This document shows positions 12,151-54,785 of a stretch of 64,000 bases of DNA, piece by piece (positions within the stretch are counted from its first letter, which is position 1; each line of letters starts with the position of its first letter). Source of the DNA: Pristiophorus japonicus (Eukaryota); the NCBI RefSeq assembly GCF_044704955.1, contig NC_091999.1:22196001-22260000 (forward strand), read 5' to 3'. Position numbers and translations under genes: made by a program. Under the pieces are notes generated by a model. It searched no databases. It was not told the origin of the DNA and saw only the letters and a list, made by a program, of their open reading frames with translations.

Positions 12151-15100
12151 GTGGTGTTTCGGAACTGCTCCTTCTGACTGTCAAAATCTGGGTTACTGAT
12201 CTCTTTTCTGCGGCGACTCCTCAACCTTAAAGTCAATCTTTTACGTTTCTCACATATACCAGTTTCTTAAATAACTAGTTAAATGACACTCCCCGCAATA
12301 CACGATCACAATCCAGAAGTTTTACAACCCGTCAGGAGGACTGCTGATTCTCACACAGTGAGCAGGCGCACAGGAACAGAACTGACAAAAACGGTGCAAC
12401 AACGGTGCTCCAGTGAGAGAGACCAGTTCTATCTGTTAATTTCAATGAAGCTCTTTGATTTCTAATGTATTTCTTGTCAATTTCCAACCACCTCAACTCT
12501 GCAGATTTTTTGAAATTAAACTGATATTTATTTGAGAAACTATTCAACATCCAGCCATTCCTCCCTCTCGGTCGACTATCTTGTAAACCGTGTAAAAATT
12601 AATTTCCCTGAAAATAAGTATCTGGAAATAATTCTCATTCCACGGAAAGTGCTGCGCGTTAAACGGGACTAGGTAACAGGGTAAGAATGTCACAATCCAG
12701 GAGACATATACATTGAAACCTGATCACCCACTGATTTGACATATTTGCAATAGTAAATATAACCTGTAAAATCATCGAGGCAAAATCAACTAAAATATTA
12801 AGCGATAGCTTATCGAACTCAGCACAGCCGAGTTATACATGCATTATCTTCTAAATTAATTAGGAATTAATTAAACATTCTCTCCAACCCTTGAGATAAT
12901 GTAATAACTGTAATGTTGACCAGTATGCAATGCAATTGCCAGAGATCATTTATGTTTAATGAATTAGAACGAATATCACATTCTAAGTTTGTGTTCGTGT
13001 TTGCTGATTATTGGAAATACTCTGAGTACCTGTCTGGCACTTCCTCCTCAGAAGCACACGTACCTGGAACTTTTGAAATTAAATTAATGTGCTTGAATTT
13101 CAGTCTTACTGATACAATTAATGAATAATAATTTAAAAACCTTTTCTGCCTGGCAACTTGTGATATATTAAGGTTTACTTAACTTACCATAACAATTCAT
13201 CAACAGTAAAATATTAAGCAGCATATTAATACATAAATACAATCAGAAAAATAAATTATTTTTCTTAACTCAAATCACATTTGACTAATTGACGATAATT
13301 ACGCAGTTCTACTTCTGTCCAGTTCTCTACCGATACATTTTTAAATTCTACATATTCTGACATAACAAAAACTGTGTCTATTTTCAGAGTACATTGCACA
13401 TGATGGATTGAGGAGTGGACTATTTTAAATAGTTCACTGTCCGGCCCGGGTCACAAGTCCGATGTGCTGTAAACCACTTGTTTACTAAACTGGACTCTCG
13501 AGCTGAAATATTCTCCACAATCTTAACTTCCCAAAAATGGTTTTCTTAATTAAAACCAGTTTGCAGTCAGTAGCAGAGCTTCTGCTATTTAATAACACAG
13601 ACAATCATTTACAGTTCACTCCCATTATTCACACAATGCCCCCAAATTAATTATTAAATACATTCTGCTATTTCTTGAAACTAATTTCCAGAATGGTTAG
13701 TGTAAAACTGTAGGATAACAAATCATTCAGACCATCTGCAACACTGAACCTGAATGAGCAAATGGAGGAGAGACTTTGTTCATCAATTTAATATTAATAA
13801 TAATTAACATAATTCTCAGATATGACCTGTGCTTTGTCTACCGTTCTATCCCGTATATAGCACCGCTTTCGGAGAAAGGAAGTTGTGTTAAATTCTAAAC
13901 AAGATGAACATTTTTTAAGTAAATTAATCTGCTTGAATTTCAATGGATTATTTGCCTATCTCCAGCCTATGCAGTCTTGAATTTGAATATAATCACATGA
14001 ATAATTCTTTGACTGCCGGTGACGCCTGACTCACAGCCTCTGATCTTGCAAACTGCTTAAGATTAGTTTACTGATAATTCTATCGGTATCAAACAAAACA
14101 CAATAGTGATTCAATAACAAATTTCGGTTGCACAGTAAGAATTTCATATTAAATTAACAAAATGCAATTTACAACACGGCTTTGAGTTATAATTAAAGAC
14201 ACTGCTAATCATCTCTGTAAACAGGAGGTAACAAGTAACTGAACATCGACTCAAACTGAACACACGGTGGAATCAATATGTTGTCAGTGAACTAATTGCA
14301 GGCATAATTAATAATTGTATCCAGCCTCTAAAAGTTTCTGCTCCTCTTAATGGAGCCCAGTGTACAGCAGGATTTTGGAATGCGAATAATATTAAGAAAA
14401 TTATATTGATATTGTAACATATTTTAAGAACATTGGAAGATATTATCGCATTATAATATTATAATCGGTTTGTTAATAGTAATTTATTTCAGCTACAACC
14501 TGAATAATTGCTAATTATATAGCTGGTAATTACAGTTACGTTTTACTCAGTAAATATCAGCATCGTAAACATAAATTTATAGTTCAATATATAATTATCA
14601 CCAATAATTGTTATGTTAAAATATATTTCAATGATTTCTGATTCCTAAAACCTTCCTGTTCTCTGCCTACAATCTGCTTTCAAACAGTTTCAAACACATA
14701 TCTTGTTTGTATTCGATCAGGAACCTGCTGCTGCCCGCTGTCACCGATATTAAACATTGTAGAAACGCCAAATAGTTTCACAAATTTTTGGTATTCTGAA
14801 TAACAGCGGCACAAACTCTCCTCAGCAGATCAATACTAAATCACATCACTGAGGGGCGGACAGAACCTTTCATGAACAGATCCTTCATTCTCTAAACCAT
14901 TTCAGCAGAATTAAATGTATCATTGCAAAAAGTCTCTTTACAGAATCACCGAAGCCGCCTAACACTAAAGTAACTAATGATTGAATTCAACTGAAATATA
15001 AAATAATGACAGCAGAATTGTGATTTGGTGGATCATGTAAAATACATTAATGTTAATATTATAGCATATTTTAATAATAATGGATGATATAACTACATCA

Positions 15101-15690
15101 TTATAATATTAGTAATATTAATTTAAATCAGGTCCATTGGAATTTAAATCAGGTCCATCTGGAAATGTGTTAATTTTTCAGTCCTTAATTACAGCAACAC
15201 TTCACGTATTGAATCTGTGCATTCGGGAACATTCGGTCAGTAGATGACAAATGTAATTTTCACTAAAATCTTTAAATTCTTTAAGAATATATATTGAGCG
15301 CTAAGGTTTCTGTTATGTGTCTAAAATGTTCTTTCAAAAATATTTAAACACAATGTTTGTATTCGATCAGAAAAACTGCAGCAATCATAGGTCACCGAGA
15401 TTAAACATTGCAGAAGTGTCAAACAGTGTAACAACTTTAAAGTATTTAACGAAACTCAAGCAAAGAAATTCGTTAGCAGATAAACACCAAATCACTTCAA
15501 CAACAACTTATGTGGAGAAACAGTTGAATTCTATAATCACATTGTAGCAGAATTACATAAAACATTGAAAAACCTCAATAGAGAACCCACCGAATCCAAG
15601 TTTCAGTGAACGAAATAATTATTAAAATAAAGAGAAATGTAAAATAAAGGCACAAATACAACAGTTGCAGAATGTATGAATGTTCCTTAC

Positions 15691-15755
15691 TTGCAATCAC
15701 CGTCACCATGGTCCCTGGTCCCCAGTAGCCCATGGCGTCCCTATTCCCGTGGTCC
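15691..15755 (-). CDS. IGHJ: Fused (germline-joined) D(D)-JH segment: DHGNRDAMGYWGPGTMVTVIA
   Basis: WGxG motif, TMVTV and A|GTAAGG donor; 31 nt between heptamer and Trp codon, open in the J frame, no internal RSS. Confidence 0.88.
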
Positions 15756-15783
15756 CACAGTGATAGGAACCCGTACAAATATT
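15756..15783 (-). other. 5' recombination signal sequence, 12-bp spacer, of the D/J block
   Basis: Read from the coding end (plus strand): CACAGTG (15756-62) + ATAGGAACCCGT (12 nt) + ACAAATATT (6/9 nonamer match). Confidence 0.9.
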
Positions 15784-16188
15784 GCATTCAGTCTCTGCTC
15801 AGTACTGATTCTCAACATTCATTCGAAATACACATGCACTTCAAATACAAATTCGCTTCTTATCAAGTTTAGAATTTAGCCAACAGTTAGCAGAAAAAAT
15901 AGAAGGAGAACACAGTTCTCACCAGCTCCCTGCAGGTATCGGGCACAGTGAATCGAGCATCATGTCCAGCTCTGCAATTCTTGACACTGTTAACATTAAA
16001 CAGGAGCACAACCGAAACCTCCCTCTGTACATTGGTTAGAGTGTTACATTTTCACCATTGAATTATCAGTGTCTTAGTTTTGTAAGAAGCGGTTTGTGGT
16101 CTGGTTTTGAACACTGCCGTTAACATTGCATTTGACACAATTACTGACCGTCAGGTTATGTTGGAAGTTATTGAATTCCCCCTCGATC

Positions 16189-16227
16189 TGTTCTTGTACG
16201 GGTCCAGCCCTGGTTCCTCTCGCTGTG
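16189..16227 (-). other. V recombination signal sequence, 23-bp spacer
   Basis: Minus strand CACAGCG + AGAGGAACCAGGGCTGGACCCGT (23 nt) + ACAAGAACA. Confidence 0.95.
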
Positions 16228-16532
16228 GTGCCTTGCACAGTAATAGATGGCGGTGTCTTCGCTCCGCAGTTTCTTCATGTCCAACGCGAAGATGTTGCTT
16301 GAAGTATCTTTGGACACAGTAAATCGGCCCTCAGTCCCCGGGGTGTAATGCTTGTCCGATGAACTGTAATATCTAATCAGCCACTCCAGCCCCTGTCCGG
16401 GAACGTGGCGGACCCAGTACATGTAGCTGCCACCAAGATCTAAGCCGCTGGTTTTACAGGTCAGTCTCAGGGAGCCCCCGGGAATCCTGGTCTCTGCCTC
16501 GGGCTGAGTCAACACCATATCCGACTGGACAC
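16228..16532 (-). CDS. IGHV: Unrearranged VH exon (shark IgM-type VH), open frame
   Basis: [26 protein letters not shown]...[13 protein letters not shown]...[33 protein letters not shown]; canonical Cys/Trp/YYC, directly followed by an RSS. Confidence 0.97.
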
Positions 16533-16657
16533 CTGTAGAAATAATCAAAAACCCCGAGGATCAATCCTGGTGAAATGATTCCTAATTCTGTAACATTCCA
16601 GAGAGACTAACACTGAGACAGGAACAGTGAAAGACTTGGACAATAAAAACTACTCAC

Positions 16658-35720: not shown

Positions 35721-36639
35721 CACCCAAAATGTATTTTTACCCAACCACTTGAATGGCCCCATTAACTCCGTGTTGTGGTCAGTTTAGTCATCCTCCCAGC
35801 AGTCCCTCTCGTGGTTATCTATGCCCTGGACCCTGTCACAGTTATTACTGCACTAGACCCAGTCTCTGTTTATATTACACTGGACTCTGTCTCTGTTTAA
35901 TTAACACACGTCCCTATCTCTATTTATATTATACTAGACCTTGTCTCTGTTTATATTACATTAGACCCTGCCCCTGTTTCTATTACACCAGAACCTGTCT
36001 CTGTTTATATTACACTAGCCCCAGTCTCTGTTTATATTACACTAGACCCAGTCATGGTTTATATTACACAAGCCCCTGTCTCTGTTTATGTTACACTAGG
36101 CCCTGTCTCTATTTATATTACACTCGTCCCTATCTCAGTGTATATTACACTAGACTCGTTCCTTGTTTATATTACACTGGACCATGGCTCTGTTTATATT
36201 ATGCTAGGCACTGTCTCAGTTATTCCTGCCATAGACCATGTCTGAAATATATTATAATAAATTCCTGTCTCTCTTCATGTTACTTTGGATCTTGTCTAAA
36301 CTATTAGTGCGCTGGATCCTGTCTCTATTTCTTATACCATAGAACCTGCCTCAGTTATTACTGCACTTGCACATGCGTCTGTTACATAAGCAGACGATAA
36401 AAAGAGAGATCGATAGATATTAATATAAATAAAGATGTGTATATGTGTAGGTGTGAGGATGCAATACTTTTTTGTTTGGAAGTATATGTTTAGATTTGTT
36501 AACAGCTATCAACACGTGTGTGCAATCTCTAATTGATCTGGTATTATGACGGTAATATTTGCGTTGAGAGGATGGGGTGAATCTTGTAACAATCTCCCAG
36601 TGATGGACTGGGATTGAGGGACAGGACGGAAGGTGTGCA

Positions 36640-36905
36640 CTTTGAACTACTGGCAACATCCGTGTGTTGGAGGTTACTAAATCACAATGTGTTTTCCTGT
36701 GTCTATTTCTCCAAGTTCTTTAACGTTAACGATTGTTTTTCATCCAGTATTTTCTATTTAGCTGTGACGTGACCGACTGAGTATGTCAGACAGAGCCTGG
36801 AACCGTGACCTCAGAGCACGGCCGGATGGGCGGCCGCAGGGTCCTAATATCCACCGGAAATAAATTCTCACCTTGTGAAATGAACAACTGAAAAGAGAAC
36901 ACATA
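36640..36905 (-). pseudogene. Degenerate V-set immunoglobulin-superfamily domain (copy 1)
   Basis: LFSCSFHKVRIYFRWILGPCGR...RFQ...SRHS*IENTG*KTIVNVKELGEIDTGKH/-1/CDLV; Cys codons at 36886 and 36686, Trp 11 codons after the first Cys; 5' part lies in an N gap. Confidence 0.6.
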
Positions 36906-37037
36906 NNNNNNNNNNNNNNNNNNNNNNNNNNNNNNNNNNNNNNNNNNNNNNNNNNNNNNNNNNNNNNNNNNNNNNNNNNNNNNNNNNNNNNNNNNNNNNN
37001 NNNNNNNNNNNNNNNNNNNNNNNNNNNNNNNNNNNNN
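36906..37037. other. Assembly gap (132 N)
   Basis: N run, at the same homologous position as the gap at 47233-47478. Confidence 0.99.
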
Positions 37038-37377
37038 TGTACAAAACAATTGCAGACATTCATAATGTGTGCAAGTGCATTCCACAAAGATAAATGATTA
37101 GCTTCAGCCAATATTTTCCAGCATTTTACTTTATTCAAAATGCAATCACAGGTCGTTTAATAGCTTTAAAATGTATTGATAACCCATTCTCTTGCTTGAT
37201 CTTGTTTAGAAAATGATGTCACTCTGACCATTCTGTTACCAGATGACCATTTCTGTCAGCAGTATTCAGTGTGAAACGGGATTAAATCACACCTAGGATA
37301 ATGAGCATCCAGACGCCAGTCTCTGCGCTTTATCGTCTTGTAATCACCTCATCATCACCCAGCAAACGCTGATGTAC

Positions 37378-37884
37378 TCCTTGAGGGAGCGCAGCCAAAG
37401 TTCACAAAACTGATTTGCGGGATGGCAGGATTGACATATGAAAAAATATTGGATTGACTAGCCTTATATTCGCTGGAATTTAGAAGAATGAGAGGGGATC
37501 TCATAGAATCATATACAATTCTGACGGGATTGGACAGGTTAGAAGTAGGAAGAATGTTCCCGATGTTGGGGAAGTCTAGAACCAGGAGTCACAGTCTAAG
37601 GATAAGGGGTAAGCCATTTAGGACAGAGATGAGGAGAAACTTCTTCACCCAGAGAAATGTGAACCGATGGAATTCTCTACCACAGAAGGTTTTTGAGTCC
37701 AGTTAGTTGGATATATTCAAAAGGGAGTTAGATGTGGCCCTTACGGCTAAAGGGATCAGGGGGTATGGAGAGAAGGCAGGAGTGGGGTACTGAAGATATA
37801 TGATCAACCATGATCATATTGAATGGTGCTGCAGGTTCGAAGGGCCGAATTGCCTGCTCCTACACATATTTTCTATGTTTCTAT
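37378..37884 (+). mobile_element. Short CR1 3' insertion present only in duplication copy 1
   Basis: RGDLIE...WNSLP and ttctatgtttctat tail; empty site at ~47790-47810 in copy 2. Confidence 0.85.
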
Positions 37885-40800
37885 ACTACTATGATTAGTG
37901 CCCATGATGGTAAAAATGAAACTGCACCTGTACCTGGCAGGAGGTTAATAAATCCGTAATTATCTGGCATTATTTCTCTCATTACACCAGATCCCGACCC
38001 CGTCGCAGGTTTTATTGCACTAGACCCAGTCTCAGTTTATACGGTTTATGTGGTGGACTTCTAAAAGTTGTTTGATAAAGTGCCATAAAAATTTAAACCC
38101 ATAGAATAAAGTGGACAGTGACAGCATGACAGAGTAGTGGTTACCAGTTATTTTTTGCTGGACTGGGGGAAGGTATACTGTGATATTCTGCAGCGTTTGG
38201 TACGAGGAATACTGCGTTTCTTCATTTATATTCATGACTTAGACTTAGGAGTACAGGATAAAATTTCGAAATTTGCAGATGATACAAAACTTGGAAATAG
38301 AGTGAACAGTGAGGAGGATAGTGATGACTTCAAGAGGACATAGACATGCTGATGGAAGGGGTGCACTCGTGGCAAATGAAACGGAGAAAAGTGTGCAATT
38401 AATCACTTTTATAAGACGAATGAGGAGAGGTAAAATAAACCAAAGCGTACAATTCTAAAGGAGTTGCATGAACACAGTAACCTGATGGTATATGTGCACA
38501 AATCATTGAAGGTCGCAGGGCCGGTTGAGAAAATGGTCAAAAAAGCTTACATGATCCTGGGCATCAAAAATACACACATAAAGTACAAAAGAAAGGAAGT
38601 TATGATGAACGTTTATAAAACACTGGTTAAGCCTCACCTGGAGTATTGTGTCCAATTCTTTAGGAAGGATATAAGGCCTTAGAGAGGATTCAGAAAATAT
38701 TTACAATTGTGGTTCCAGTGACACAGTACTTCGTTTAAGTGGATAGTCTGGAGAAGATGGAATTGTTCTCCTTGGAGCAGGAAGGTTGAGATGAGATTTC
38801 ATAGAGGTGTTCAGAACATAAGGGGACGAGACAGAGTAGATATCGAGAAACTGTTCCCATTGGTGGAAAGACCGAGAACAAAGGGCACAGATTTACGGTG
38901 ATTAGCAGATTGGAAAACTGCAAATATAATGCCCATATTTGCAGGCAAAAAGCTGGAAACTATAAACCAGTTAGTCTAACAGCTGTGCTTGGGAAAATGT
39001 TGGAATCCATTATTAAAGAAGCAGTGGCAGAATATTTGGAAAATAAAAATTCGGTCAGGCAGAGTTAGCATGGATTTATGAAGGGGAAGTCATGTTTGAC
39101 ACATTTTCTGGAAATCTTTGAGGAAGTAACACACAGGGTGGATAAAGAGGAACCAGTGGATGTGATGTATTTGGGCTTTTAGAAGGCATTTGACAAGGTG
39201 CCACATAAAAGGTTACTGCACAAGATAAACAATCACGGGGTTGGGGCTGATATTATAGCAAGGACAGAGGATTAGCTAACTGACAGAAAACAGAGAGTCA
39301 GGTTCAATGGTTCATTCTAGGGTTGGCAATCAGTAAATTTTGTGGTGCTGCAGGGATCAGTGCTGGGAACCCATCTGTATACAATCTACCGACTTTGAAG
39401 AAGGGATCGAGAGTAACATAGCCAAGTTTTATGATGATACAAAGATGGGAGAAAAAGCAATGTGTGACGAGGACACAAAAATACTCCACTACATCTCAGT
39501 AGACCATTCTCAAGTTTATTTTACCCTATCCATCACGTTAAATATTCCCTCCCTCTTCCAACGGTGCAGCATGCCTGCAATGATTAAAATCGCCAAGATG
39601 CTTTGCAGCAACTCCCCAAGACATCCTCGACAACCCTTTCCAGACCTACGACCTCTTCCACCTGGAAGGGCAAGGGCAGCGTGGTCATGGGAACACCATC
39701 ATCTCCATGTATCCCTCCAAATCACACATCAACCTGAGTTGGAAACTTATTACCGTTCCTTCATAGTCGCTGGGTCAAATTCGTGGAACCCCCTCCCGAA
39801 CAATGTGGGGGGTTCCATCACCACATGGACTGCAGCTGTTCAAGGTGGCAGCTCGGCCAATTCGGGATAGACCATCAATGTTTGCCTTGTCAGCGACACC
39901 CACACCCATATGCAAGGAGCGAATAAAGAAATGTCCCTGTATCAGTAATCCTGCACGGGGCCCTATCTCAGTTATTACTGCACTAGAACTATTAATATTG
40001 TACTCGGCCCGGGAGCAGATATTACTGGAATATGTCATGTCTTTGTTCCTATTACACAAGACCCTGTCTCTGTTTATATTAAACTAGACCAGGACATGGA
40101 TTCTATTACACTAGCCCCATCCTTTTACATTATTAAACTAGACCATATCTCTGCTTATATTCCACTGGACCCTGTCTCAGTTATTACTGCACTAAACTCT
40201 GTAACTTCAAGGCCAGGTTCAGCATGTGTTAGCTACATAATAAAGCGCCCTCTACACTGCACCATCAAACATTCCCAGGCCAGGGGCAGCATGTGTCAGG
40301 TACAGAGTAAAGTACCCTCTATTCTGCCCCATCACATACTCCCAGGGCAGGTATAGCACGTGTTAGATACAGAGTAACGCTCCCTCTACTATGTCCCATT
40401 ACACACTCCCAGGGCATGTATAAACCTCCAGTATCACATTAGTGATGTTGCTGTACATGCTGACGAGAAGGAATATTTTCCTTTCTTTCCGTCTGTATCA
40501 TCTTACCTTTATTCTAATAAAATTTAGTGAAATGTACCAAAAAACAATTGTTGCGAGTCTGTTGAGAGATTTGCATTTCTATCTATCTTTATTTCTATGG
40601 TGTGTTGGTGGGGAAACATTATTGTGTCTCTGTCGCTCAATACTCTAATCTGGGACATCTATTTCTGTGATTATTTACATAAAGGCCTGAATGGTTCCTA
40701 TGAATTTTTCATGGCAGCAAAATCATGACAACAGAGTCACTTATTGATTAGTCTCAACTCACAACAAGGGCATATTTTAAGAATATTGACTGTGGGTACA

Positions 40801-41894
40801 CAGCAGTAGCAATATGTCGAACGGTGACGTTGGTTTCAGCTTTGTTTAATTCGAACAGATGTGATTTATATCAAAGGGAATAAATATTAAAATGAATAAT
40901 TCAGTTCTGAAAGTTCTGCTGCTGAAATCAGTGGAACATCTCTGAACACGCTGCTATTCCACTGGATCTCCATTTCGTGGAAGATTAAACGCATTGAAAC
41001 TAAGCAATTTCAACGGGTGACCATCAGTAATATCTGAGCGTTTCACGTATCGCAACTTCTATTTAAGAATGTTGACATTTAGAAAAGCTAGCATTTATAT
41101 AGCGCCCTTCGTGACCTCATGATGTCCCAAATTCTTTACAGCCAATGAATTACTTTGGAAGTGTTGTATTGTTGGAAATGTGGCAACCATTCTGTGCACA
41201 GCAAGATCCCATACACAGCAATGAATAATGATCAGATCATCTGTTTTTCAGATGTTGTTTGAGGGACAAATGTTTTCCGTGGAAACCCTGGAGAACTCCT
41301 CAGCTGTTTAAGATATTGAAATTATTCCTTTAAATCCACCTGAATGGGAAGATGGGGCATCAGCTTAATGTTTGCCCCAAAAGACGGCAGCTCTGACCGT
41401 GCAGCACACCCTCAGTACTGGCATCGGACATATGGCACATATTATGGCCTCAGGTCGCTGGAGTGGGGTTTAGTATCTGTGAACTTCTGAGTCAGAGGCG
41501 AGAGTGATCCCAATGAGCCGAGGCTTGAACATATCACAGCTTGTATTTTAAAATGTTGCCATTCAGTTCATCTTGCCTGAAGTTCAGGGCCTTATCACAG
41601 TCTTACTCCGATCAGTTTATTATCATGCGTGAGGTCTTTTATCTTGTCCGGGATGTCATTTCCACACTGAGGTTTCCACTGGGTCTATATAAAAGTGCCA
41701 GCGATTCCACAAGGAACATCTGGAAGTGCCCGAGGCAGAAGGACTCACGGAACTTGAGTTTTACACTGTGTGAGCTGCAACATCAGAGCAGCTGAAAGCT
41801 AGGATTGTTCTTCTTAGAGCCGAGTAGGTTATGGGCCACTTATTCGAGGTGCTCAAGAATATGAAGAGTTTTGATCGGGTAAAATGGGAGATAC

Positions 41895-42200
41895 TCCATC
41901 ACTCCCTCCCACTATCCTTCCCTCCTACCACCTGTCTCTCCTTCCCTCCCACCCATCATCCCTCTCTCCCTCCATCCCTCCCACCCTCCACCCATTTCTC
42001 CTTTCCTCCCTCCCTTCATCAATCCGTCCCACCATCCCTGCCACCCTCCTTCCATTTCCAGCCCTCCATACCTCCATTGCTCCCCACTTCAATCTCTCCC
42101 TCCCCGCACCCATCCCTCCCACCGTCCAACCATCCCTCCACCCCTCCATCACACCACCCCGCCCATGCTCCACTCCTCCCTACCTCCATACCTCCCTCAG
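41895..42200. repeat. Pyrimidine-rich (CCCT/CCAT)-type simple repeat
   Basis: Homologous tract at ~52620-52830; source of the Pro/Ser-rich ORFs. Confidence 0.9.
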
Positions 42201-42619
42201 CTCAGCCGATTCTTATTTTCCCTTTGCAGTGTTTCTGCTTCCAACGATGAGGATTCCTGAGCTGGAATGTTCTGCACCCAATTCCTCCACCGGGCTTTCA
42301 TATATATTAATAAATAAGAGAGAGAGCGACAGCAAATGGATATATTTAACTGATGAGAAATAAAATGGTGACCTTTCCAGAGAGGGAGTTGGCTGTGGAA
42401 ATGGCACTAGGTAGAAATTCTAGTTGGGGCAGTCGGGATAATTTTCCTTTATATAAATAAAAAAAAATATGGGTAACATCTTTAAAAATTGTTTTAAGTC
42501 ATCGTCGACTTTCAGCTTCTCGTTTTCCCTCCCCATTCTCGCTGTTGAGGATGGGTCAGTGCCCGCCTGGAGCTTGTTGCCATTGTGTGTATGGCATGGT
42601 AGCTCGCAAGCTCTCGCTA

Positions 42620-45600
42620 CATGGACAGACTTGGAGAAGCTGGGGCTGTTCTCCATACAGCAGAGAAGGGTGAGGGGAGATTCAGTAGATTGGTACCTGC
42701 ATGAGGGACTTCAGTTAAAGTGGAGACTGGAGAAGATGGGATTGCTCACCTTGGAGGGGGCAAGATTGAGGGCATCTGTAATAGAATGGTACCAGGGATG
42801 AGGGACTTCAGTTAATGTGGCGAGACATGAGAAGATGGTATTCTCCATTTAGAGGATGAAAGTCTAAGAGAAGATTTGATGGACGGTTTTGAAATCATCA
42901 ATGGATTAGACAGAGTATATCAACAGAAACTGTTTCAGAGTGATGGCGATTGACAAAAGAACAAGAAGTGATATGTAGACGAAATTCTCTATGCAACCAC
43001 GAATTAGGATTTAGAATGTACTGCATGATAGGGTGGTAGATACAGATTCAATAGTAGCCTTCAAAAGGAAATTGTGTAAATATTTGAAGGAGAAAAAATG
43101 CAGTGATATAGGGAAGGAGCGTGGGATTGACATTAACTGGATTATTCTTCGAAAGAGCCGCCACAGACTATATCGGCTGAATGGCCACCGTCTATGCTAT
43201 ACTAATCTATGAGTGACCATAACATGGTTGAATTTCACATTCAATTAGTGGAGGGTGGGGTGGGTGGAGCTGGTGGGTGAGAGTTGGTTCACAAACCAGC
43301 GTCCTAAGTTTAAATGAAGGATACTATGAGGGCAGAGTTGGCGAAAGTGGACTGGGAAAATAGATAAAGGGATGGGACAGATGATGAGCAGTGGCAGATA
43401 TTTAAGGAGATATTTCATAACTCGAAACAAAAATATATCCCAATGAGAAGGCAACACTGCATGAGATAGGGATAACCATCCGTGGCTAACTAAGGAAATA
43501 AGGGAAGGTATCACATTTAAGACTAGTGGGAGGTCAGAGGATTGGGAAACTTTTAAAAGCTAGCAAATAAATAACAAATGATAAAGAGAGGGAAGATAGA
43601 TTATGAAAGTAAACTAGCATGAAATATACAAACAGATAGTAAGAGTTTCTACAGGTGCATAAAAAGGAAAAGTTTGGCTAAAGTAAATATTGGTCACCGA
43701 GACGATGAGACTGGGCAATTAATTACGGAGACCAAAGAAATGGCAAAGTCGTTGAAGAAATATGTTGTATTTGTCTTCACGGTAGAATACATTAAAAACA
43801 TTCCAATAGTGGAACATCAATGGCTATAGGGAGGGAGGAAGTTATTACAATCATGATCACTAATGAAGTAGTACTTGGTAAAATAATGGGACTCAAGACG
43901 GACAACTCCCCTGGAGCTGACGGCTTACATCTTCGGGTCCTAAAAGTAGTGACTGCAGAGATAGTGGATGCTTTGGCTGTAATCTACCAAAATGTCCTGG
44001 ATTCTGGGGCGGGCCCAGCAGATTGGAAAATTGCAAATATAACGTCACAATTTAAAAATGAAGGCAGACAAAAAGCAAGAAACTATAGATCAATGAGCCG
44101 AACGTCAGCCATTGGGAATAAAGTTGGAGTCCATTCAGGAAGCAGTAGCGGGACATTTGGAAAAGCATCATTCAATCAAGCAGAGTCAGCATGGTTTAAT
44201 GAAAGGGAAATCATGTTTGACAAATTTGCTGGAGTTCTTTGAAGATGTAACGAGCAGAGTGGATAAGGGGGGACTAGTGGATGTGGTGTATTTGTATTTC
44301 CAGAATGCATTCGATAAGGTGCCATATAAATGGTTATTGCACAAGATAAAAGTTCACGGGGTTGTGGTTAATATACTAGCATGGATAGCGTATTGGCTAA
44401 CTAGCAGATCGGTTAGTCGGGATATTTGGGTCATTTTCTGGTTGGCAAACAGTGACTAGTGGGGTGCCGCAGGGATCGGTACTTCGTCCTCAATTATTAA
44501 CAATCCATAGTAATGACTTGGATGAAGCCACTGAGTGTAATGTTGGCAAGTTTGCTGATGATACAAAGATGGGTGAGAAAGCAAATTGTGACGTCGACAC
44601 AAAAATCTGCAAAGGGATTTAGACAGGCTAAGTGAGTGTGCAGAACTGCAGAGGATATTGTACGAGAGTACTGCGTAAGGTTTTGGTCTCCATATTTAAG
44701 GAACGATATACTTACATTGGAGGCTGTCCAGAGAAGGTTTACTAGGATGAGTCCGGAGATGAGGAGGCTGACTTATGAAGATAGGTTGAGTAGGTTGAGC
44801 CGATACACATTGGAGTTCAGAAGAATGAGAAGTGATTTTACTGAAACATAGGATAACGAGGGGGCTCAACAAGGTGAATCCAGAGAGGATATTTCTTATT
44901 TTTTATGTACTTATGTTTTTATATTTATATTGCACTGGGCACAGTAGCTGCTTATATTACACTAGACCTTGTCTTTATAATACACTAGACCCTGTCTCTG
45001 TGTGTATTACACTGGGCCCTGCCTCTGTTTATATGACACTAGACCCAGTCTCCCTTCATGTTGCACTAGGTCGTGTATCATTGCACTTCACAAGAAGTCC
45101 CAGCAGATTGGAAAACTGCAAATGTAAAGCGCCTATTTAAAAAAGGAGGAAGCCGGAAAGCAGGAAACTATAGACCAGGTAGCCTAAAATCTGTGTTTGG
45201 GAAATTGTTGGAGTCCATTATTAAATAAGCTTTAGCAGGATATTTGGAAAAGCATAATTCGGTCAGGCAGAGGCAGCATAAATATATGAAGAGGAAGTCA
45301 TGTTTGCAAAAATTGCTGGAAATCTTTGAGGATGTAACGAACAGGGTGGATAAAGGGGAACCAGTGAGTGTGGTTTATTTCGACTTCCAGACGGCATTTG
45401 ACATGGTGCCACATAAAAGGTTACTTCACAAGATAAACCTTCACGGGGTTGGGGGTAATATATTAGTATTGATAGAGGATTGTCTAATTAACAGAAAACA
45501 GAGATTCGGGCTAAATTGTTCATTCTCGGTTTGGCAATCAGTAAATGGTGGCGAGCCGCAGGGATCAGTGCTGGGGTCCCAGCTATTTACAATCTATACT

Positions 45601-46545
45601 AACGAATTGAATGAAGGGACCGAGTATAACACAGAGAAGCTCGTTGACGATAGAAAGATGTGAGGAAAAGCAATATGTAAGGAGGACTCAAAATATCTGC
45701 AAAAGACATAGACAGGCCATGTGAGTGGGAAAAAATTTGACAGATGGAGTATAATGTAAGAAAGTGTGAGATCATGCACTTTGGCATTACAAATCAAAGA
45801 GCAACGTTTTAATTAAATGGAGAAATATTGCAAAGTGCTGCAGTACAGCGGGACCTGGGGGTACTTGTGCATGAAACACAAAAGGTTAATATGCAGGTAA
45901 AGGAAGTGATCAGGAAGGTAAATGGAATTTTGGCCTTTATTACAAAGGGGATGGAGTATAACAGCAGGTTGGTCTTGCTACAGTTGTACAAAGTATTGGT
46001 GAGGCCACACCTGGAAAAATGCGTACAGCTTTGTTTGCCACATTTACGAAAGATTATACTTGCTTTGTAGGCAGTCCAGAGAATGTTCACTAGGTTGAAT
46101 GCGGAGATGAGGGGCTTGACTTACGAGGAATGGTTGAGGAGGTTGGGCATCTACTCATTGGAATTCAGAAGAATGAGTAGTGATCTTATCGAAAAGGTGG
46201 CTACAGAGAGGATCTTTCCAATGATAGGGTAGACTAGAACTCGGGGCATAATCTTAGAATAAGGGGCCGACCAGTTAACACTGAGATGAGGAGGAACTTC
46301 TTTACTCAGAGGGTTGTAAATCTGTGGAATTCATTGCCTCAGAGAGCATTGGATTCCGAGAAATTGAATAATTTTAAGACAGAGATAGACAGTTTGTATG
46401 CGATAAGAGATTAATGGGTTATGGCGAGCACACAAGGAATTGTATCTGAATCCATGATCGGATCAGCCATGATCGTATTGAATGGCGGAGCAGGCTCGAG
46501 GGGCCGTATGGCCGACTCCTGCTTCTATTTCTTATATGCTTATGG
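42620..46545 (+). mobile_element. Mosaic of degenerate CR1 ORF2 fragments
   Basis: SPGADGLH, KGKSCLTNLLEFF, QRDLGVLVHE, LVRPHLE motifs. Confidence 0.85.
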
Positions 46546-46959
46546 TTTTCTAATGTTACAATGTCTGTTTGTGTCGGCCTAGGCTCAGTGTGTCTCACTT
46601 CGCTCCGGTCTCAGAAAGTTTTGGGATAAACTCACACGCCAAGGAATGTATCTCTATTTATTGTAGAACAGACCCTGTCTTCGTTATTTGTGCACTTGAC
46701 CATGCGTCTGTTAGATAGACAGAAGATATATAGACGGTGGATAGATATTAATAAAAATAAAGATATTTATGGTGTGGGTGGGAGGATGCAATACTTTTTT
46801 GGATAGAACATAGGTTTAGTTTCACTAATAGGTAACAAGAGTTGTGGGCAATGTCAAATTGATCTGGTATTGTGTCTGTAATATTTGTATGAGCGGATGG
46901 GGTGAACATTGTAAAAATCTCCCAGAGATGGACTGGGATTTAAAGACAGGACTGAAGGG

Positions 46960-47232
46960 GAGCAATTAACTGCACTTTGCACTACTTAGTGGCACTCGGT
47001 GTGTTAAAGATTACTAATTCACACTTGTGTTGTCCTGTGCCAATTGCTCCCAGTTCTTTAATGTTAAGGATTGTTTTTCCTGCAGTATTTTCTATTGAGC
47101 TTTCACGTGACCCATTGATTGTGTCGGACCGAGCCTGGAACCGTGATCTCAGAGTACCGCCGGATGTGCGGCCGCAGGGTCCAAACATCCACCGGATAAT
47201 AAATCATCTGCTTAAGACGAACAACTGAAAAG
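46960..47232 (-). pseudogene. Degenerate V-set immunoglobulin-superfamily domain (copy 2)
   Basis: LFSCSS*/-1/FIIRWMFGPCGR...RFQ...SRESSIENTAGKTILNIKELGAIGTGQHKCELV; Cys codons at 47223 and 47023; 5' part lies in an N gap. Confidence 0.6.
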
Positions 47233-47478
47233 NNNNNNNNNNNNNNNNNNNNNNNNNNNNNNNNNNNNNNNNNNNNNNNNNNNNNNNNNNNNNNNNNNNN
47301 NNNNNNNNNNNNNNNNNNNNNNNNNNNNNNNNNNNNNNNNNNNNNNNNNNNNNNNNNNNNNNNNNNNNNNNNNNNNNNNNNNNNNNNNNNNNNNNNNNNN
47401 NNNNNNNNNNNNNNNNNNNNNNNNNNNNNNNNNNNNNNNNNNNNNNNNNNNNNNNNNNNNNNNNNNNNNNNNNNNNNN
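47233..47478. other. Assembly gap (246 N)
   Basis: N run. Confidence 0.99.
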
Positions 47479-48909
47479 CATAACGTGTGCAAGTGCATTC
47501 CACAAAGGTAAACTATTATCTCCAACCATTATTTTTCAGCATTTTATTTTATTCAACAGCTAATTGCAGATCGTTTAATACCTTTAACATTTATTGATAA
47601 CGCATTGTCTTGTTTGCTCTTCTTTAGAAAGTGATGTCACACTGACAATTCTGTTATCAAGTTGACCATGTATGTCCGCAGTATTCAGTGGGAAAGTGGA
47701 TTAAATCACATCGAGAATAATGAGCATCCAGCCACCAGTCTCAGCGCTTTATTGTCCAGTGATCACCTCACCATCACACAGAATCCGCTGATATACACCT
47801 CAACTGTATGATTATTGGTTCAAGTGATGGTAAACATGAAACTTCACCTGTACCTGGCATGGGTTAATAAATCTGTAACTATCTGACTTATTGTCTCTCT
47901 CAATACACCAGACCCCATCGCAGTTTTTACTGCAGTAGACTCAGTCTCAGTTTTTTGGTTGATGTGATGGACTTCCAAAAGGCATTTGATAAAGTGCTTT
48001 GATAATATCCTTGCCAGCAAAGTTAAAGCTCATAGAATATAAGGGACAGTGGCATCCATGGATATGAAATTGGCTGAGTGACAGGAGTCAGAGAGCTGTG
48101 GGTTTTTTTTGGACTGGAGGAATGCATACAGTGGTGTTTCGCAGCGGCTGGTTCTAGGAACACTGCTTTTCTTGATTTATATTCATGACCTGGATTCGGG
48201 TGTACTGGGCACAATTTCACCATTTTCAAACGATTCAAAGCTTGGAAGTTTAGTGAACAGTGAGGAGAGGAGGATAGTGATGACTTCAAGAGGACAGCGA
48301 CATGCTGGTGGAATAGACGGACACGTGGCAAATGGAACGCAGAAAAGTGTGAAGTTATACATTTTGGTAGGAAGAACGAAGAGAGTAAAATTAACTGAAG
48401 GGTACAATACTAAAAACTGTGATGAACGCAGGGACCTGGGGGTCCAAATGCAAAAATCTTTGAAGGTGGCAGGGCAGGTTGAGAAAGTGTTTTAAAAAGC
48501 ATATGGGATCCTGGGCTTCATAAATAGAGGAATTGAATATATAAGCAAGGAAATTATGATGAACCTGTGTAAAACACGGTTTCGACGTCAACCTATTACT
48601 GTGTCAAATTCTGGGCACCGTACTTTAGGAAGGATGTGAACGCCTTAGAGCGGGTGCAGAAAATATTTACTTGTGGTTCCAGGGATAAGGTACTGCAGTT
48701 ATGTGGATAGACTGGAGAAGCTGGGGTTGTTCTCATAGAGCACAGAATTTTGAGATGAGACAAAATAGAGGTGTTCAGAATCATAACGGGTCGAGACAGA
48801 GTAGCTGGAGAGAAACTGTTCCCATTGGCGGAATGGTCGAGAACAGGATACAGAATTATCACAATTGCAGAACAACCTAAATTTACATGTGGAAAAATTA
48901 CGATCTGGA

Positions 48910-50335
48910 ATGCACTGCCTGAAAGATTGGTGGTGACAGATTCAATCTTGGCATGGAATTGGATAAGTTCCTGAAGGATAAACAATCATAGGGCTTCGGG
49001 AAATGGCAAGGGAGTGGACACGCTGAAATACTCTTGCAGAGAGCGGCATGGTCTATATAGGCCGAATGACTCTTTTCTGTGCTGTAATTCTATAGTTCTA
49101 TAATACACCAGGAACTGTCTCAGTTATTACTATACTCGACCCTGTTCCAGTTTATATTACCGCAGCCACCACGTTAAATATTCCCTCCCCCCACACCAGC
49201 GCTCCATGTCTGCAGTGATTACTATCCACAAGATGCATTGCAGAAACTCGCCAAGACATCTTCGACAGCACTTTCCAAACCTACGACCTCTTTCACCTAG
49301 AAGAACAAAGGCAGCAGGCTCCTGGAAACGCCATCACTTCCAGCTTCGCCTCCAAATCAAATACCATTCTGACTTGGAAATTTATTACCATTGTTTCATA
49401 GTCGCTGGTTCAAATTCGTGGAACCCGCTCCCTAACACTGTGAGAGTGGCTTCACCACACGGTCGACAGCGGGACAAGGCGGCAGCTCACCACCTGCTTC
49501 TCAAGATCAATTAATATAGACAATTAATGTTGGCCTTGATTGCACTGCCTGAATGAGTGGTGGAGGCAGATTCAATCATGGCATGGAATTGGATAAGTTC
49601 CTGAAGGAAGAACAATCACAGGGCTACGGAAAAGTGCGGGTGGGTGGACTAGCTGAAATACTCTTGCAGAGGGCGGCATGCTCTATATGGGCCGAATGAC
49701 TCTCTTCTGTGCAATAATTCTATAATTCTATACTACACCAGGGACTGTCTCAGGTATTACTATGCGAGACCCTCTTCAAGTTTACATTACCCCAGCCACA
49801 ACGTTAAAAATTCACTCGCTCCACCACCAGCGCTCCATGTTTGCAGTGATTACTATCCACAAGGTGCATTGCAGCAACTCGCCAAGACATCTTCGACAGC
49901 ACTTTCCAAACCTACGACCTCTCTCACCTAGAAGAACAAAGGCCGCAGGCTCCTGGGAACACAATCACCTCCAAGTTCGCCTCCAAATCGCACACCATCT
50001 TGACTTGGAAATTTATTACCATTGCTTAATAATCGCTGGTTCAAATTCGTGGAACCCGCTCTCTAACACTGTGGGAGTGCCTTCACCACACGGTCTACAG
50101 CGGGTCAAAGGGGCAGCTGACAACCTGCTTCTCAAGACCTATTATGGATAGGCAATTAATGTTGGCCTTGATTGCACTGTCTGAATGATTGGTGAGACAG
50201 ATTCAATCATGGCATGGAATTGGATATGTTCCTGAAGAAAGAACAATCGCAGGGCTACGTGAAAGGGCAGTCGAGTGGACCAGCTGAAATACTCTTGCAG
50301 AGTGCGGCATGCTCTATATGGGCCGAATGACTCTC
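48910..50335 (+). repeat. ~630-bp tandem duplication containing the 3' end of a second LINE family
   Basis: HKMHCxNSPRHLRQHFPNLRPLSPRRTKAAG at 49206 and 49840; single copy of the same fragment at ~39550-39930. Confidence 0.8.
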
Positions 50336-53300
50336 ACCCCCGCATGACAGGAACGAATAAAACAATGTCCCTGTATCAGTAATTACTGCACTAGGCCCTA
50401 CCTCAGTTATTATAGTAATAGAACTATTAATATTGTATTAGGCCCTGTCTCTTATATTACTGGAATAGGCAATGCCTTTGATCCTATTACACAAGTCCCC
50501 GTCTCTGTTAATATTAAACTAGACACGGACACTGTATATATTACTCTAGCCCCATCATTTCACTTTACTAAAATAGACAATGTCTCTGTTTCTGTTAAAT
50601 TTGACCCTGTCACCGTTATTAATGCACTAAACACTGTAACTCACAGGTCAGGTACAGCATGTACCAGATACAGAGTAAACCGACCTCTACACTGTCAAAT
50701 CGAACATTCCCAGGACAGGTAAAGTCCGGGTTAGATACAGAAAAATGGACTCTATACACAGTCCCATTAAATACTTACAAGGTAGGTACAGTACAGGTTA
50801 CATACAGTGTAAAGCTCCCGCGACTCTGTCCCATCAAACACTCCCAGGGCAGGTGCAGCACGAGTCTGATCCAGAGTAAATCGAGCTCTAAACTGTCCCA
50901 TCAAACACTGGGGCAGGTAGAGCACAGTTTAAATACTCCCAGGTAGTTTAATGCACAGGTCACATCTTGGTTTAAAGCTCCCTCTGCGCATTCCAATCAA
51001 GTTGATTCGAGGCGTAACATTAGGGTTCAAGGAAAACATTTGTTAGATTTTAATATCTAGTTGTGGGAGATGGCTAATTATCCATTCTTGAGAGACAATA
51101 GGAAACGTAGAAATAGGAGAGGGAGAGGATACAGGGAATCTCCACTGACACATTTGTGATGTTACTATATACGGTGAATAGGATCTTTCCCCATTCTGTC
51201 CATGGGTATGATTTACTTTATTCTCCTATAATTTAGAGAAATGCGCCCCAAAAAAATTTCTACTGGAATTCGTTGAGAAATTTGCATTTATTTCTCTGTT
51301 TATTTCTATGCTGTGTTGGTGGGGAAACATTTAAATTGTTTCTGTCACTCAATACTCTAATCTGGGACTTCTATTGCTGTGTTTATTTACATAACCGACA
51401 CACTGGGTCCCATGAAATGTTCATGGCAGTAAAATCAGATCAACAGAGTTATTTATTGATTCCTCTCCTCTCACAACAAGTGTTTATTTTAAAAATATTG
51501 ACAGTTGGTACAACATTAATAGAAAATTCTCCCAACAGTGAGGTTTGCTTCAGTTTTGTTCAATTAGAACAGATGTCATTCATACCAAAGGAAGATATAG
51601 TAAAATGAATAATTCAGTTCTGACAGCTCTACTGCCAAAATTAATGGAACATCTCTGAAAAGGCTGCTATTCCACTGGATCTCCATTTAGTGGAAGATTT
51701 AAACCATTGAAACTAAACAAGTAAAATGGGTGAGCAGAGGAGTGTCCTACAATCACATTAATATCTGAGCTTTTCACATATCGCAACTTGTATTTACAAA
51801 TGTTGACATTTAGAAACACCTTGCATTTATATAGTGACTTTCTTGACCTCATGATGTCCCAAATTGCTTTACAGCCAATGAATTACTTTGGAAGTGTGCT
51901 CACTGTTGTAATGTAGGAAACGCGGCAGCCAATGTGTGCACAGCAAGCTCCAACAAAGAGCATGAAATATTGATCTGATAATTTGTTTTTCAGATGTTGG
52001 TTGAAGTGTAAATATTTGCGCTGGAAACCCTGGAGAACTCATGTGCTCTTCAGTATAGTGCCAGGAATCCCTTAAATCCAACTGAGCAGAAAGTTGAATC
52101 CTCAACTTATTGTCTGCCCCGAAAGACATTATCTCTGACAGTGCAGCACTCCCTCAGTACTGGCGCCGGGCGTGTCGGCATAGATTATTGGCTCAGGTTT
52201 CTGGAGTGTGGATTAATATCTGTGACCTTCTGATTCGCAGGCCAGAGTGAACCCACTGAGCCGAGGCTTGAACATATCACAGCGTGTACTTTAAAATGTT
52301 CACATTCAGCTCATCGTGTCTGAAGTTCAGGGCCTGAGCCCAGTCTAATAGCGATCTATTTATTTTCAGGGGCGAGTTCTCTTATTTTGCCTGGGATGTC
52401 ATTCTCACACTGGGATTTCCACTGGGTCGATATAAAAGTGACACCGACTCCGCAGGGAACATCTGGATGTGCCTTAGGTAGAAGGACTCACGGAACTTGA
52501 GCTGCACCATCAAAGCAGCTGGAAGCTAGGATTGTTCTCCTTAGAGACGAGCACGTTATGGGCCACTTAATAGAGGTGTTCCAATTCATGAAGAGTTTTG
52601 ATGGGGTAAATTGGGAGATACTCCATCACTTCCCCCACCATCCCTCTCGCCATCCACTCGTCTCTCCTTCCTTCCCTCCCTTCATTCTTACCTTCGTACA
52701 TACCTCCATCCCTCCCTCTATCAATCGCTACCTTCCTGCAGCCATCCCTCCCTCCCTCCGTCCATCCCTCCACCGTTCCATCACTTCATCCCTCCCTTGC
52801 TCCAATCCACCCTCCACTCTTTCCTCCCTCAGTCCAAACGATTATTATTGTTCCCTTTGCAGAGTTTCTGCTTCCATCGATGACGATTCCCCAGCTGGAA
52901 TTTTCTGCACACAATTCCTTCAGCGGGTTTTCATATGTATTAACAAATAAGAGACAGAGCGATGGCAAATATATATATTGAAGCCCCCACCCGAAAAAAA
53001 CTGACAAGAAAAAAAATGCTTACCTTTCAGGAGAGGTAGTTGGCTGGGGAACTGTCACTGGGTCGAAGTTCTGGCTGCGGCAGTCACGATATATTTCCTT
53101 TTGTAAATAAAAAAAATAAGTTAACAATTTTTTAAAAATTTCAAGATATCGTCGGCTTTCAGCTGCTCTTTTTTCCTCCGCCATTTCGCTGTTGAGGACT
53201 GGCCAGCGCCCGCCTGGAGCTCGCTGCATTGTGTGTACGGGATGGTAGGACGCAAGCTTTCACTACGTGGCCAGACTTGGAGAAGCTGGGGTTGTTCTGC

Positions 53301-53526
53301 TTACAGCAGAGAAGGTTGAGGGGAGATTTACCAGATTGGTACCAGGGATGAATGACTGGAAACACTAGTTCAGCCCCAGCTAGAGTATTGTGTCTAAATC
53401 TGGGCACCATACTTTAGGTAGGACGTGAAGAATTCCGAGAGGATCTAGAAGAGATTTACTGGAAATGTATCAGGGATGGGGGATTGAAATTATATGGTGA
53501 GACTAGAGAAACTGGAGCTGTTCTCC

Positions 53527-54785
53527 TTAGACCAGAAAAGGTTAAGAGGTGATTTAGTAAATGATAAGAACATAAGAACATAATAAAAAAGAGCTGGAGT
53601 CGGCCATACGGCCCCTCGAGCCTTTTGCGCCACTCAATACAATCATGGCTGATCTGACCATGGACTGATCTCCACTTCCCCGTCCGCTCCCCATAAACCC
53701 TTATCCCATTATCGTTTAAGAAACGATCAAATCTGTCTTAAATTTATTCAATATCCCACTTCCACAGCTCTCTGCAGCAGCGAATTCCACAAACTTACAA
53801 CTCTCTGAGAGAAGAAATTTCTCCTCATATCTGTTTTCAATGGGTGCCCCCATTCTAAGATCGTGCCCTCTAGTTCTAGTCTGCCCCATCAGTGGAAACA
53901 TCCTCTCTGCATCCACTTTGTCAAGCCCCTTCATAATCTTATACGTTTCGATAAGATCACCTCTCATTCTTCTGAATTCCAATGAGTAGAGACCCAACCT
54001 AATCAACCTTTCCTCATAAGTCAAACTCCTCATCCCCAGAATCAACCTAGTGAAACTTCTCTGAACTGCCTGCAAAGCCAGTAAATCCTTTTGTAAATAC
54101 GGAAACAAAAACTGCACGCAGTATTCCAGATGTGGCCTCAGCAATACCTTACATAGGTGTAGCATGACTTCCCTGCTTTTATACTCCATCCCCTTTGCAA
54201 TGAAGACCAAAATTCCATTGGCCTTCCTGATCACTTGCTATACCTGCATACTATCCTTTTGTGTTTCATGCACAAGTAACCCCAGGTCCCGCTGTACTGC
54301 GGCACATTGCAATCTATCTCCATTTAAATAATAATGCTGTTTATTTTCTTTCGGCCAAAGTGCATGACCTCTCATTTTACAACATCATACTCCATCTGGC
54401 AATTTTTTTCTCACTTACTTGGCCTGTCTATGTCTTTTTGCAGATTTCTTGTATCCTCCTCACACACTACTTTTCCTTCCATCTGTTTATCGCCAGCAAA
54501 CTTGGCTACCTTACACTCAGTCCCTTATTCCAAGTAGCAAATGTTGATTGTAATTAGTTGAGGTCGCAGCACTGATCCCTGCGGCATGCCACTAGTTACT
54601 GGTTGCCAACCAGAGAATGGACCATTTGTCCCGACTCTCTGTTCTTTGTTCCAATCCTCTATGCATGGTAATATATTACCCCCAGCCCCGTGATCTTTTA
54701 TCATGTGCAGTAACCTTTTATGTGGCACTTTGTCAAATGCTTTCTGGAAGTCCAAAGAACCCTATCCAATGGTTCCCCTTTATCC
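53527..54785 (-). mobile_element. Older CR1 (minus strand), interrupted by the full-length CR1; continues at 59396-59560
   Basis: DFQKAFDKVPH, GMPQGSVL, HLEYCVQF; host sequence cccctttatcc|accctgttcg is split by the insertion. Confidence 0.9.

What the first reader, a model, noticed from the sequence alone, without database searches (positions are those of the whole stretch)
36640..47639. Hidden family of non-rearranging V-set IgSF (pseudo)genes upstream of, and co-oriented with, the IgH cluster
Seen: two paralogous minus-strand segments (36640-36905 and 46960-47232) merge into LFSC-SFHKVRIYFR-W-xxGPCGR...RFQ...SIENTxGKTIxNxKELGxI-DTGxHKC-xLV. This has a B-strand Cys, Trp at +11, an E-strand hydrophobic pattern and a DxGx(Y>H)xC motif, with a reconstructed Cys-Cys distance of 67 codons. 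The stops and the 1-nt deletion between the cysteines fall at different places in the two copies, so their ancestor was open. There is an extra Cys after the Trp and no convincing RSS. Inference: relics of an unannotated V-type receptor family (CD300/pIgR/NKp30/CD8-like grade; family not identified) next to an Ig cluster. The ORF track shows only fragments of it.
Basis: partly seen in the sequence, partly recalled or inferred. Interest (0 to 1): 0.7.

Follow-up and report, generated by a model that had tools for sequence, protein, structure and literature searches.

The report
Amplified spacer repeat beside shark IgM
The two segments are copies of a short DNA stretch repeated over 200 times beside shark antibody, T-cell-receptor and zinc-finger gene clusters; it drifts like non-coding DNA, its faint antibody-domain look is unproven, and one 14-base spot in it changes unusually fast, likely through repeated DNA breakage and repair.

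Summary
The two segments are real paralogues, but they are 2 of at least 220 copies of a 0.5-1.1 kb stretch. Most sit in tandem units upstream of, and co-oriented with, IgM V genes (130 of 150 scored). Seven follow TCR-delta V genes; 22 belong to a lineage whose 4 examined sites lie among zinc-finger genes. No copy is open from Cys to Cys (0 of 59) and dN/dS is 1.13. Pfam, PDB and 1.84 billion proteins give no Ig hit. A custom V profile fits weakly (shuffle p 0.001-0.02) and not after allowing frameshifts. So this is not a receptor family; descent from a long-dead V exon stays open (about 30%). A 5-22 nt spot before the 'Trp' is hypervariable and marks the edge of homology to the TCR copies. 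RNA-like contigs match a zinc-finger-region copy.

The parts
36380..36858 (-). Copy A, right part (about 500 bp, also found after TCR-delta V genes); holds the 'Trp...Cys' frame, broken here by two stops and a 1-nt deletion
   Evidence: profile of TCR-locus copies matches 36858-36380, E 6e-90; translation
36855..36866 (-). Copy A hypervariable spot, just 5' of the 'Trp' codon (36853-36851)
   Evidence: coordinates read
36867..36905 (-).
37061..37381 (-). Copy A upstream part, shared by IgM-array and zinc-finger-region copies, not found in the TCR region
36322..42697 (.). Tandem duplication unit carrying copy A (unique blocks, old LINE/SINE pieces, minisatellites)
   Evidence: 74-83% identity to unit B along its length
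46663..47199 (-). Copy B, right part; open 69-codon frame from Trp (47191) to Lys (46985), Cys at 47023-47021
47193..47203 (-). Copy B hypervariable spot
   Evidence: 4 steps vs 0.51 expected among 7 near-identical copies of this class
47479..47887 (-). Copy B upstream part
46558..54785 (.). Tandem duplication unit carrying copy B; three further copies of the stretch follow beyond the window end
4075..16560 (-). IgM cluster (VH, D, D-J, four C exons) that the array lies upstream of

Best explanation
The segments are copies of a neutrally drifting stretch carried along in segmental duplications: it sits in 7-15 kb tandem units upstream of many IgM clusters, after TCR-delta V genes and among zinc-finger genes, and its hypervariable spot is likely a site of recurrent germ-line breakage and repair. 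Shown: copy number, the three contexts, neutral protein-level evolution, the hypervariable spot, and that homology to the TCR copies starts at that spot. Inferred: unequal crossing-over built the tandem arrays once, upstream of an ancestral IgM cluster, and whole cluster-plus-array blocks were then duplicated. Inferred (about 40%): a break at the spot joined the 500-bp right part to different left flanks, and repeated repair keeps changing the spot. The cutter is not identified. No protein is predicted from the window's copies.
For: At least 220 places: 191 + 22 + 7. Arrays: 5 copies in the window plus the next 40 kb; 7 co-oriented copies plus 1 inverted terminal copy over 86 kb at C23:24.12-24.21 Mb. 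Position classes are shared between arrays at 95-99% identity. dN/dS 1.13 in the Trp frame, 0.80-1.26 in the other five (29 copies); codon-position divergence 0.098/0.088/0.090; 7 of 8 indel events in the frame are not multiples of 3. Acceptor-to-Trp distance falls in all three phases, 22/24/16 of 62. Spot: mean pairwise distance 0.51 and 9 lengths vs 0.08-0.25 in the following 270 nt across 23 classes. In the young zinc-finger lineage, 22 steps in 14 sites vs 0.23 per site elsewhere, best other window 9 of 462 (20 copies). Homology to TCR copies begins at profile position 434-440 in 11 of 11 array copies, and a further V-delta spacer (L113) shares the left flank up to position 430 and then diverges.
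Against: The consensus frame from the Trp is open for 69 codons; stop gains are 10 vs 18 expected, though about half of that sample was picked by protein score. The first 330 nt change more slowly (about 1.6 steps per site) than the next 230 (about 2.5), which could mean constraint. The V-like pattern improves in the TCR-locus copies (2.1 to 5.6 bits). The hotspot is weak in young IgM-array classes: 17 steps vs 8.3 expected over 6 classes, clear in 1 of 6, none in 2 of 6; a seventh class was dropped because only one sequence was extracted. No RSS, target-site duplication or unjoined precursor marks the spot: 30 of 30 left-part hits run into the right part. Gene conversion among paralogues could inflate tree-based step counts.
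Confidence: 0.62

Rival explanations
1. The stretch descends from a V exon of the TCR-delta array that died long before the copies radiated; its 3' two-thirds were later captured and amplified. This differs from the best explanation only in origin.
For: 7 copies lie on the V-gene strand in the TCR-delta array, 6 of them 0.8-1.1 kb after a V-delta; an acceptor-like site is kept in 7 of 7 and is followed by a V-x-L-x-C motif. Register with real V domains at -15 (Leu, array consensus), -13, -6 (Asp, TCR consensus), -4 (Gly, array consensus) and the Cys. Custom V profile: 5 and 3 of 3000 shuffles reach the TCR consensus scores, 61 of 3000 the array consensus. hhalign E 0.0066 over 22 columns and E 0.044 over 56, probability 6% and 1%. 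AlphaFold places three strands where D, E and F would be.
Against: Frameshift-aware alignment is not above shuffles: 20 of 60 and 13 of 60, 2 of 40 and 26 of 40. Best DNA match to 47 V exons is z 2.8, not significant after 47 tests. 3 of 1332 genomic control windows also reach 5 bits. Cys-to-Trp is 24 and Cys-to-Cys 80 residues in the TCR reading, too long. The acceptor side is spacer DNA that also occurs without the right part, so the two halves may be unrelated.
Confidence: 0.3
2. The stretch is a cis-regulatory element (enhancer, promoter or insulator) kept and multiplied with IgM, TCR-delta and zinc-finger clusters.
For: Fixed side and strand relative to VH; CpG-rich first 90 nt (o/e 0.70 vs 0.16 after it and 0.49 for the window); CRE- and E-box-like words seen by eye (motifs recalled, not tested); slower change in the first 330 nt.
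Against: 45 of 94 VH hits have no scored copy within 150 kb (only 150 of 612 candidates were scored); whole 7-11 kb units are equally similar; orientation to the co-duplicated zinc-finger gene is opposite.
Confidence: 0.15
3. One reading: relics of a family of non-rearranging V-type receptors (CD300/pIgR/NKp30/CD8 grade) that was functional during or shortly before its expansion.
For: Open consensus frame from the Trp; weak E/F-strand pattern; multi-copy beside IgH.
Against: 0 of 59 copies open Cys to Cys; neutral evolution; no Ig-type C or second V exon in the arrays (V-profile scan) and no leader or membrane exon seen in translations; no J-like G-x-G motif after the Cys; no homologue among 1.84 billion representatives except one unrelated tandem-repeat protein.
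Confidence: 0.04

Closest known systems
TCR-alpha/delta-type and intermediate V fragments between IgH clusters in the elasmobranch antigen-receptor complex (Flajnik et al. 2025, PMC12227049; read parts 1-3 of 8 and search passages, not the supplements)
   Same: Same region type: IgM miniclusters on the contig that also holds the TCR alpha/delta V, D and J segments; sequence shared between the TCR-delta V array and IgM flanks.
   Different: Those are recognisable V exons. This stretch is below every library threshold, is tandemly arrayed, and also occurs in zinc-finger clusters on other contigs. Their table S1 was not read and may list fragments in such positions.
UrIg2 / UrIg non-rearranging VJ-C1 genes (PMC12227049)
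   Different: UrIg2 has a split leader, an intact VJ exon, C1 exons, a membrane exon and a solved structure. Here: no intact exon, no J motif, no C exon and no PDB match.
Germline-joined Ig genes made by RAG-like activity in shark germ cells (Lee et al. 2000, PMC2193156; abstract and outline only)
   Same: Precedent for inherited, junction-like diversity in shark germ-line DNA; the IgM cluster in this window appears D-J pre-joined.
   Different: No RSS and no unjoined precursor were found at the hypervariable spot, and many changes there are substitutions, so RAG is only one candidate.
Segmental-duplication core sequences / low-copy repeats (general knowledge, recalled)
   Same: One stretch recurring in duplicated blocks of several multigene clusters, with a breakpoint inside it.
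   Different: A causal role in duplication is not shown here.

Membership tests
V-set IgSF domain (Pfam PF07686) | Match to the V-set profile | tested here: not met
   No Ig family at E<=10 for 2 window frames, 16 array copies or 4 TCR-locus copies; the window's VH scores 60 bits
V-set IgSF domain (Pfam PF07686) | B-strand Cys in frame, 11-15 residues before the C-strand Trp | tested here: not met
   In frame without a stop in 5 of 59 array copies; 24 residues in the TCR-locus reading
V-set IgSF domain (Pfam PF07686) | E-strand L-x-I pattern and F-strand D-x-[AG]-x-Y-x-C | tested here: inconclusive
   L, I, G and C in register in the array consensus; D only in TCR-locus copies and the copy-A lineage; His, never Tyr, at -2; shuffle p 0.001-0.02, not significant with frameshift search
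V-set IgSF domain (Pfam PF07686) | Ig beta-sandwich fold | tested here: inconclusive
   Model pLDDT 54, three strands plus a helix; best Foldseek E 0.27, best VIA Z 3.8 (rmsd 3.1, 51 aligned); model too poor to decide
Non-rearranging V-type receptor gene (UrIg2, NKp30, CD300, pIgR, CD8 type) | Intact exon from Cys to Cys in at least one copy | tested here: not met
   0 of 59; none of 7 TCR-locus copies; not all genome copies were read
Non-rearranging V-type receptor gene (UrIg2, NKp30, CD300, pIgR, CD8 type) | Purifying selection on the domain | tested here: not met
   dN/dS 1.13; no codon-position bias
Non-rearranging V-type receptor gene (UrIg2, NKp30, CD300, pIgR, CD8 type) | G strand (J-like G-x-G) in the same exon; constant or membrane exons downstream | tested here: not met
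   Stop 13 codons after the Cys in most copies, no G-x-G; no V or IgM-C match in the arrays or dispersed sites; membrane exons not searched by a dedicated predictor
Rearranging TCR/Ig V segment | Heptamer-23-nonamer RSS after the Cys | tested here: not met
   None at <=3 mismatches at window copies or TCR-locus copies, while neighbouring V genes show theirs
Structured non-coding RNA | Rfam match or conserved fold | tested here: not met
   Only microsatellite-driven mir-297 hits far below threshold; structure conservation index 0.05-0.36, mean z -0.7 to 0.8 in 14 windows
Germ-line break hotspot (RAG, PRDM9/SPO11 or other) | Breaks mapped at the site in germ cells | not testable with these tools
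   Only indirect: excess change and coincident homology edges

The most novel reading that the evidence does not exclude
A dead TCR-delta V exon became a duplication core: a sequence-specific germ-line break site inside it repeatedly seeded the rearrangements that built the tandem arrays and helped spread IgM and zinc-finger clusters through this shark genome, leaving a 14-base scar that is still diversifying. This would give a concrete, testable driver for how shark IgH miniclusters multiply.
Probability: 0.12. Interest if true: 0.75.

Novelty: new member of a known kind. Interest (0 to 1): 0.33.

Why it matters
As a receptor family it does not stand. What is left is a lineage marker and a lead. 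The arrays tag about half of the VH hits and tie that IgM sub-lineage, the TCR-delta V array and zinc-finger clusters to one shared stretch, which helps order duplications in the shark antigen-receptor complex. If the hypervariable spot is a true germ-line break site, it offers a handle on why shark Ig clusters multiply; if not, this is ordinary duplication debris. No description of this repeat was found in six literature searches of a library that lacks most subscription papers.

Tried and rejected
Pfam, PDB sequence, 5.8-billion-protein word search (two runs) and 1.84-billion HMMER search: no Ig relative. P0001 is a tandem-repeat artefact. Fold searches listed no Ig domain, but the model is too poor to exclude one. 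ESM Atlas gave no answer. NAR-TCR-like cassette (V-J-supporting V): the second V genes in neighbouring cassettes appear to carry their own leader, and the stretch does not match them at DNA level; rejected. Homology of the array copies' left part to the TCR left flank: not above shuffles, p 0.45-0.88. By-eye J-like and V-start readings of the upstream part: no V-profile or DNA support. Somatic V(D)J junctions in RNA: rejected for run X6, whose junction equals genomic copy L257; the X5 junction is in none of the loci held, so it is an unsampled copy or an allele. snoRNA, ribozyme or SINE-head readings: no Rfam or fold support. The run search said 'no RNA holder listed'; the three further runs gave no contig 95% or more like copy B, which proves nothing about silence. 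A poly(A) end at the edge of the RNA match: the A-run is genomic. Zinc-finger relics in the IgM arrays or TCR region: none.

Full report
Setting. The window is G000:C23:22196001-22260000. It holds a minus-strand IgM cluster: VH at 16228-16518 (Pfam V-set 60 bits), D and J segments and four constant exons. The cluster layout marks a shark or relative (inference). The same contig carries many more IgM clusters and, at about 9.7-11.7 Mb, TCR alpha/delta V, D and J segments. This matches the linkage reported in PMC12227049 (parts 1-3 of 8 and search passages read; supplements not read).

The observation. Both segments exist and translate as stated. They are not islands of similarity: they lie in tandem duplicate units, 36322-42697 and 46558-54785, that are 74-83% alike throughout. 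A DNA search gave 569 first-look candidates (40 scored) and a protein search 612 (150 scored). Merged lists give 191 distinct places; 22 more come and 7, so at least 220. Of the 150 scored copies, 130 lie 8-115 kb upstream of a VH on the same strand, and 49 of 94 VH hits have at least one (the VH list left out light-chain-like and weak hits). One array read in full has 7 co-oriented copies and an inverted terminal one.

Is it a gene? No copy is open from Cys to Cys (0 of 59), and the first Cys is in frame and stop-free up to the Trp in 5 of 59. The distance from the acceptor-like site to the Trp falls in all three phases. On a tree of 29 chosen copies, dN/dS is 1.13 in the Trp frame and 0.80-1.26 in the other five; 7 of 8 indel events break the frame. 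Codon positions diverge equally, and copies A and B differ at 4 synonymous and 19 non-synonymous codons. Against this reading: the consensus frame from the Trp is open for 69 codons, and stop gains are 10 vs 18 expected, in a sample partly chosen by protein score. Pfam, PDB and both large protein searches returned no Ig relative. The AlphaFold model has pLDDT 54 with three strands, too poor to decide the fold.

Where it comes from. The 3' 500 bp also occur seven times in the TCR-delta V array at C23:9.77-9.89 Mb, on the V-gene strand, six of them 0.8-1.1 kb after a V-delta. These copies form their own branch; the tree is unrooted, so direction is not shown. They have a different 5' flank, with an acceptor-like site in 7 of 7 and a V-x-L-x-C motif, and they carry the Asp. 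With a profile built from this genome's V domains, the TCR consensus scores 5.5-5.6 bits (5 and 3 of 3000 shuffles) and the array consensus 2.1 bits (61 of 3000); 3 of 1332 genomic control windows reach 5 bits. Profile-profile comparison gives E 0.0066 and 0.044 at 6% and 1% probability. Frameshift-aware and DNA-level tests are not above shuffles, and the Cys-Trp and Cys-Cys spacings are too long. The TCR 5' flank also occurs after another V-delta without the 3' part, so the two halves of the V-like reading may not belong together. I put descent from a long-dead V exon at about 30%.

A third context, and RNA. Runs X5-X7 have no library on record but show spliced IgM C4-C3 and C3-C2 joints, so they are read as RNA (one study, at most three samples). 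All three hold contigs under 95% like copy B over 46826-47182 (5, 7 and 1 laid). A motif from their loose end found 22 further genomic copies on C9, C11, C20, C26 and unplaced contigs. At 4 of 4 sites examined the copy lies between C2H2 zinc-finger exons, 2.8-5.7 kb past an opposite-strand zinc-finger exon. The X6 loose end at the variable spot equals the C20:79.258 Mb copy. These copies have broken frames too (output partly cut). Contigs give no strand; the likely reading is a zinc-finger 3' UTR or read-through (inference).

The hypervariable spot. Just before the 'Trp' codon, 5-22 nt differ far more than the rest: mean pairwise distance 0.51 with 9 lengths, vs 0.08-0.25 in the next 270 nt, over 23 classes under 90% alike; the left part and microsatellite side are intermediate, 0.21-0.40. 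Among 20 young zinc-finger-region copies it has 22 steps in 14 sites vs 0.23 per site elsewhere; the best of 462 other windows has 9; 17 of the 22 steps are outside CpG (read from the same output). In six young IgM-array classes the excess is only twofold (17 vs 8.3, p 0.005) and clear in one class. The TCR copies also vary there. Homology to the TCR copies starts at this spot in 11 of 11 array copies, and the other V-delta spacer ends beside it. Lengths ignore the reading frame, so protein selection is not the cause. No RSS or unjoined precursor was found. Recurrent germ-line breakage and repair is the explanation I think most likely (about 40%). RAG-like germ-cell activity has precedent in sharks (PMC2193156, abstract only); meiotic hotspot turnover and gene conversion are alternatives (recalled knowledge). 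No conserved RNA fold exists.

How it works. Shown: neutral multi-copy stretch, three contexts, tandem arrays, hypervariable spot at a homology edge. Inferred: one joining event at the spot, tandem amplification upstream of an ancestral IgM cluster, then duplication of whole cluster-plus-array blocks, and separate spread with zinc-finger genes. Not shown: any function, the cutter, or the direction of transfer.

Comparison and verdict. It is not a member of the V-set family or of the UrIg2/NKp30/CD300 kind of gene by the tests above. It resembles the V-derived debris between IgH clusters mentioned in PMC12227049, but is far more decayed and far more amplified. Nurse-shark IgM loci are described as at least 120 kb apart, with no mention of such arrays in the nine passages read (PMC2435157). 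Six searches found no description (other hits seen as listings only). Interest 0.33: the headline claim fails, while the three-cluster distribution and the fast-changing spot are modest, testable leads.

Noticed in passing
   Followed up: no
G000:C23:9.77-9.89 Mb (L114, L124, L168-L179): About 110 bp after the RSS of V-delta genes of one family lies an inverted RSS-like site (23-bp spacer at 8 places, 13 at 1) followed by a short stretch that looks J-like by eye.
   Followed up: partly
G000:C23:9746499-9749666: Two broken IgH-type V segments and other unusual V segments lie just upstream of D-delta, the setting for IgH-to-TCR-delta trans-rearrangement described in PMC12227049.
   Followed up: no
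L138-L160; e.g. G000:C23:24211569-24212153: Arrays appear to end in an inverted copy whose 5' side is cut by a LINE 3' end; one array was read in full.
   Followed up: partly
L078:4180-4800 (G000:C25): A roughly 600-bp insertion sits immediately beside the hypervariable spot in this copy, with a short duplicated target; it looks like an RTE-type LINE end (recalled, not tested).
   Followed up: no
G000:C2:52363594-52364675: A solitary copy with left and right parts, with no V, IgM-C or second copy within the 30 kb read.
   Followed up: partly
window 20843-22554 and 55400-59394: Young CR1-type LINE copies with long reverse-transcriptase and endonuclease frames.
   Followed up: no
G000:C9:4441870-4442196 and C8:147156788-147157042: V-set hits inside open frames of 3056 and 1122 codons; possibly tandem repeats in frame.
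   Followed up: no
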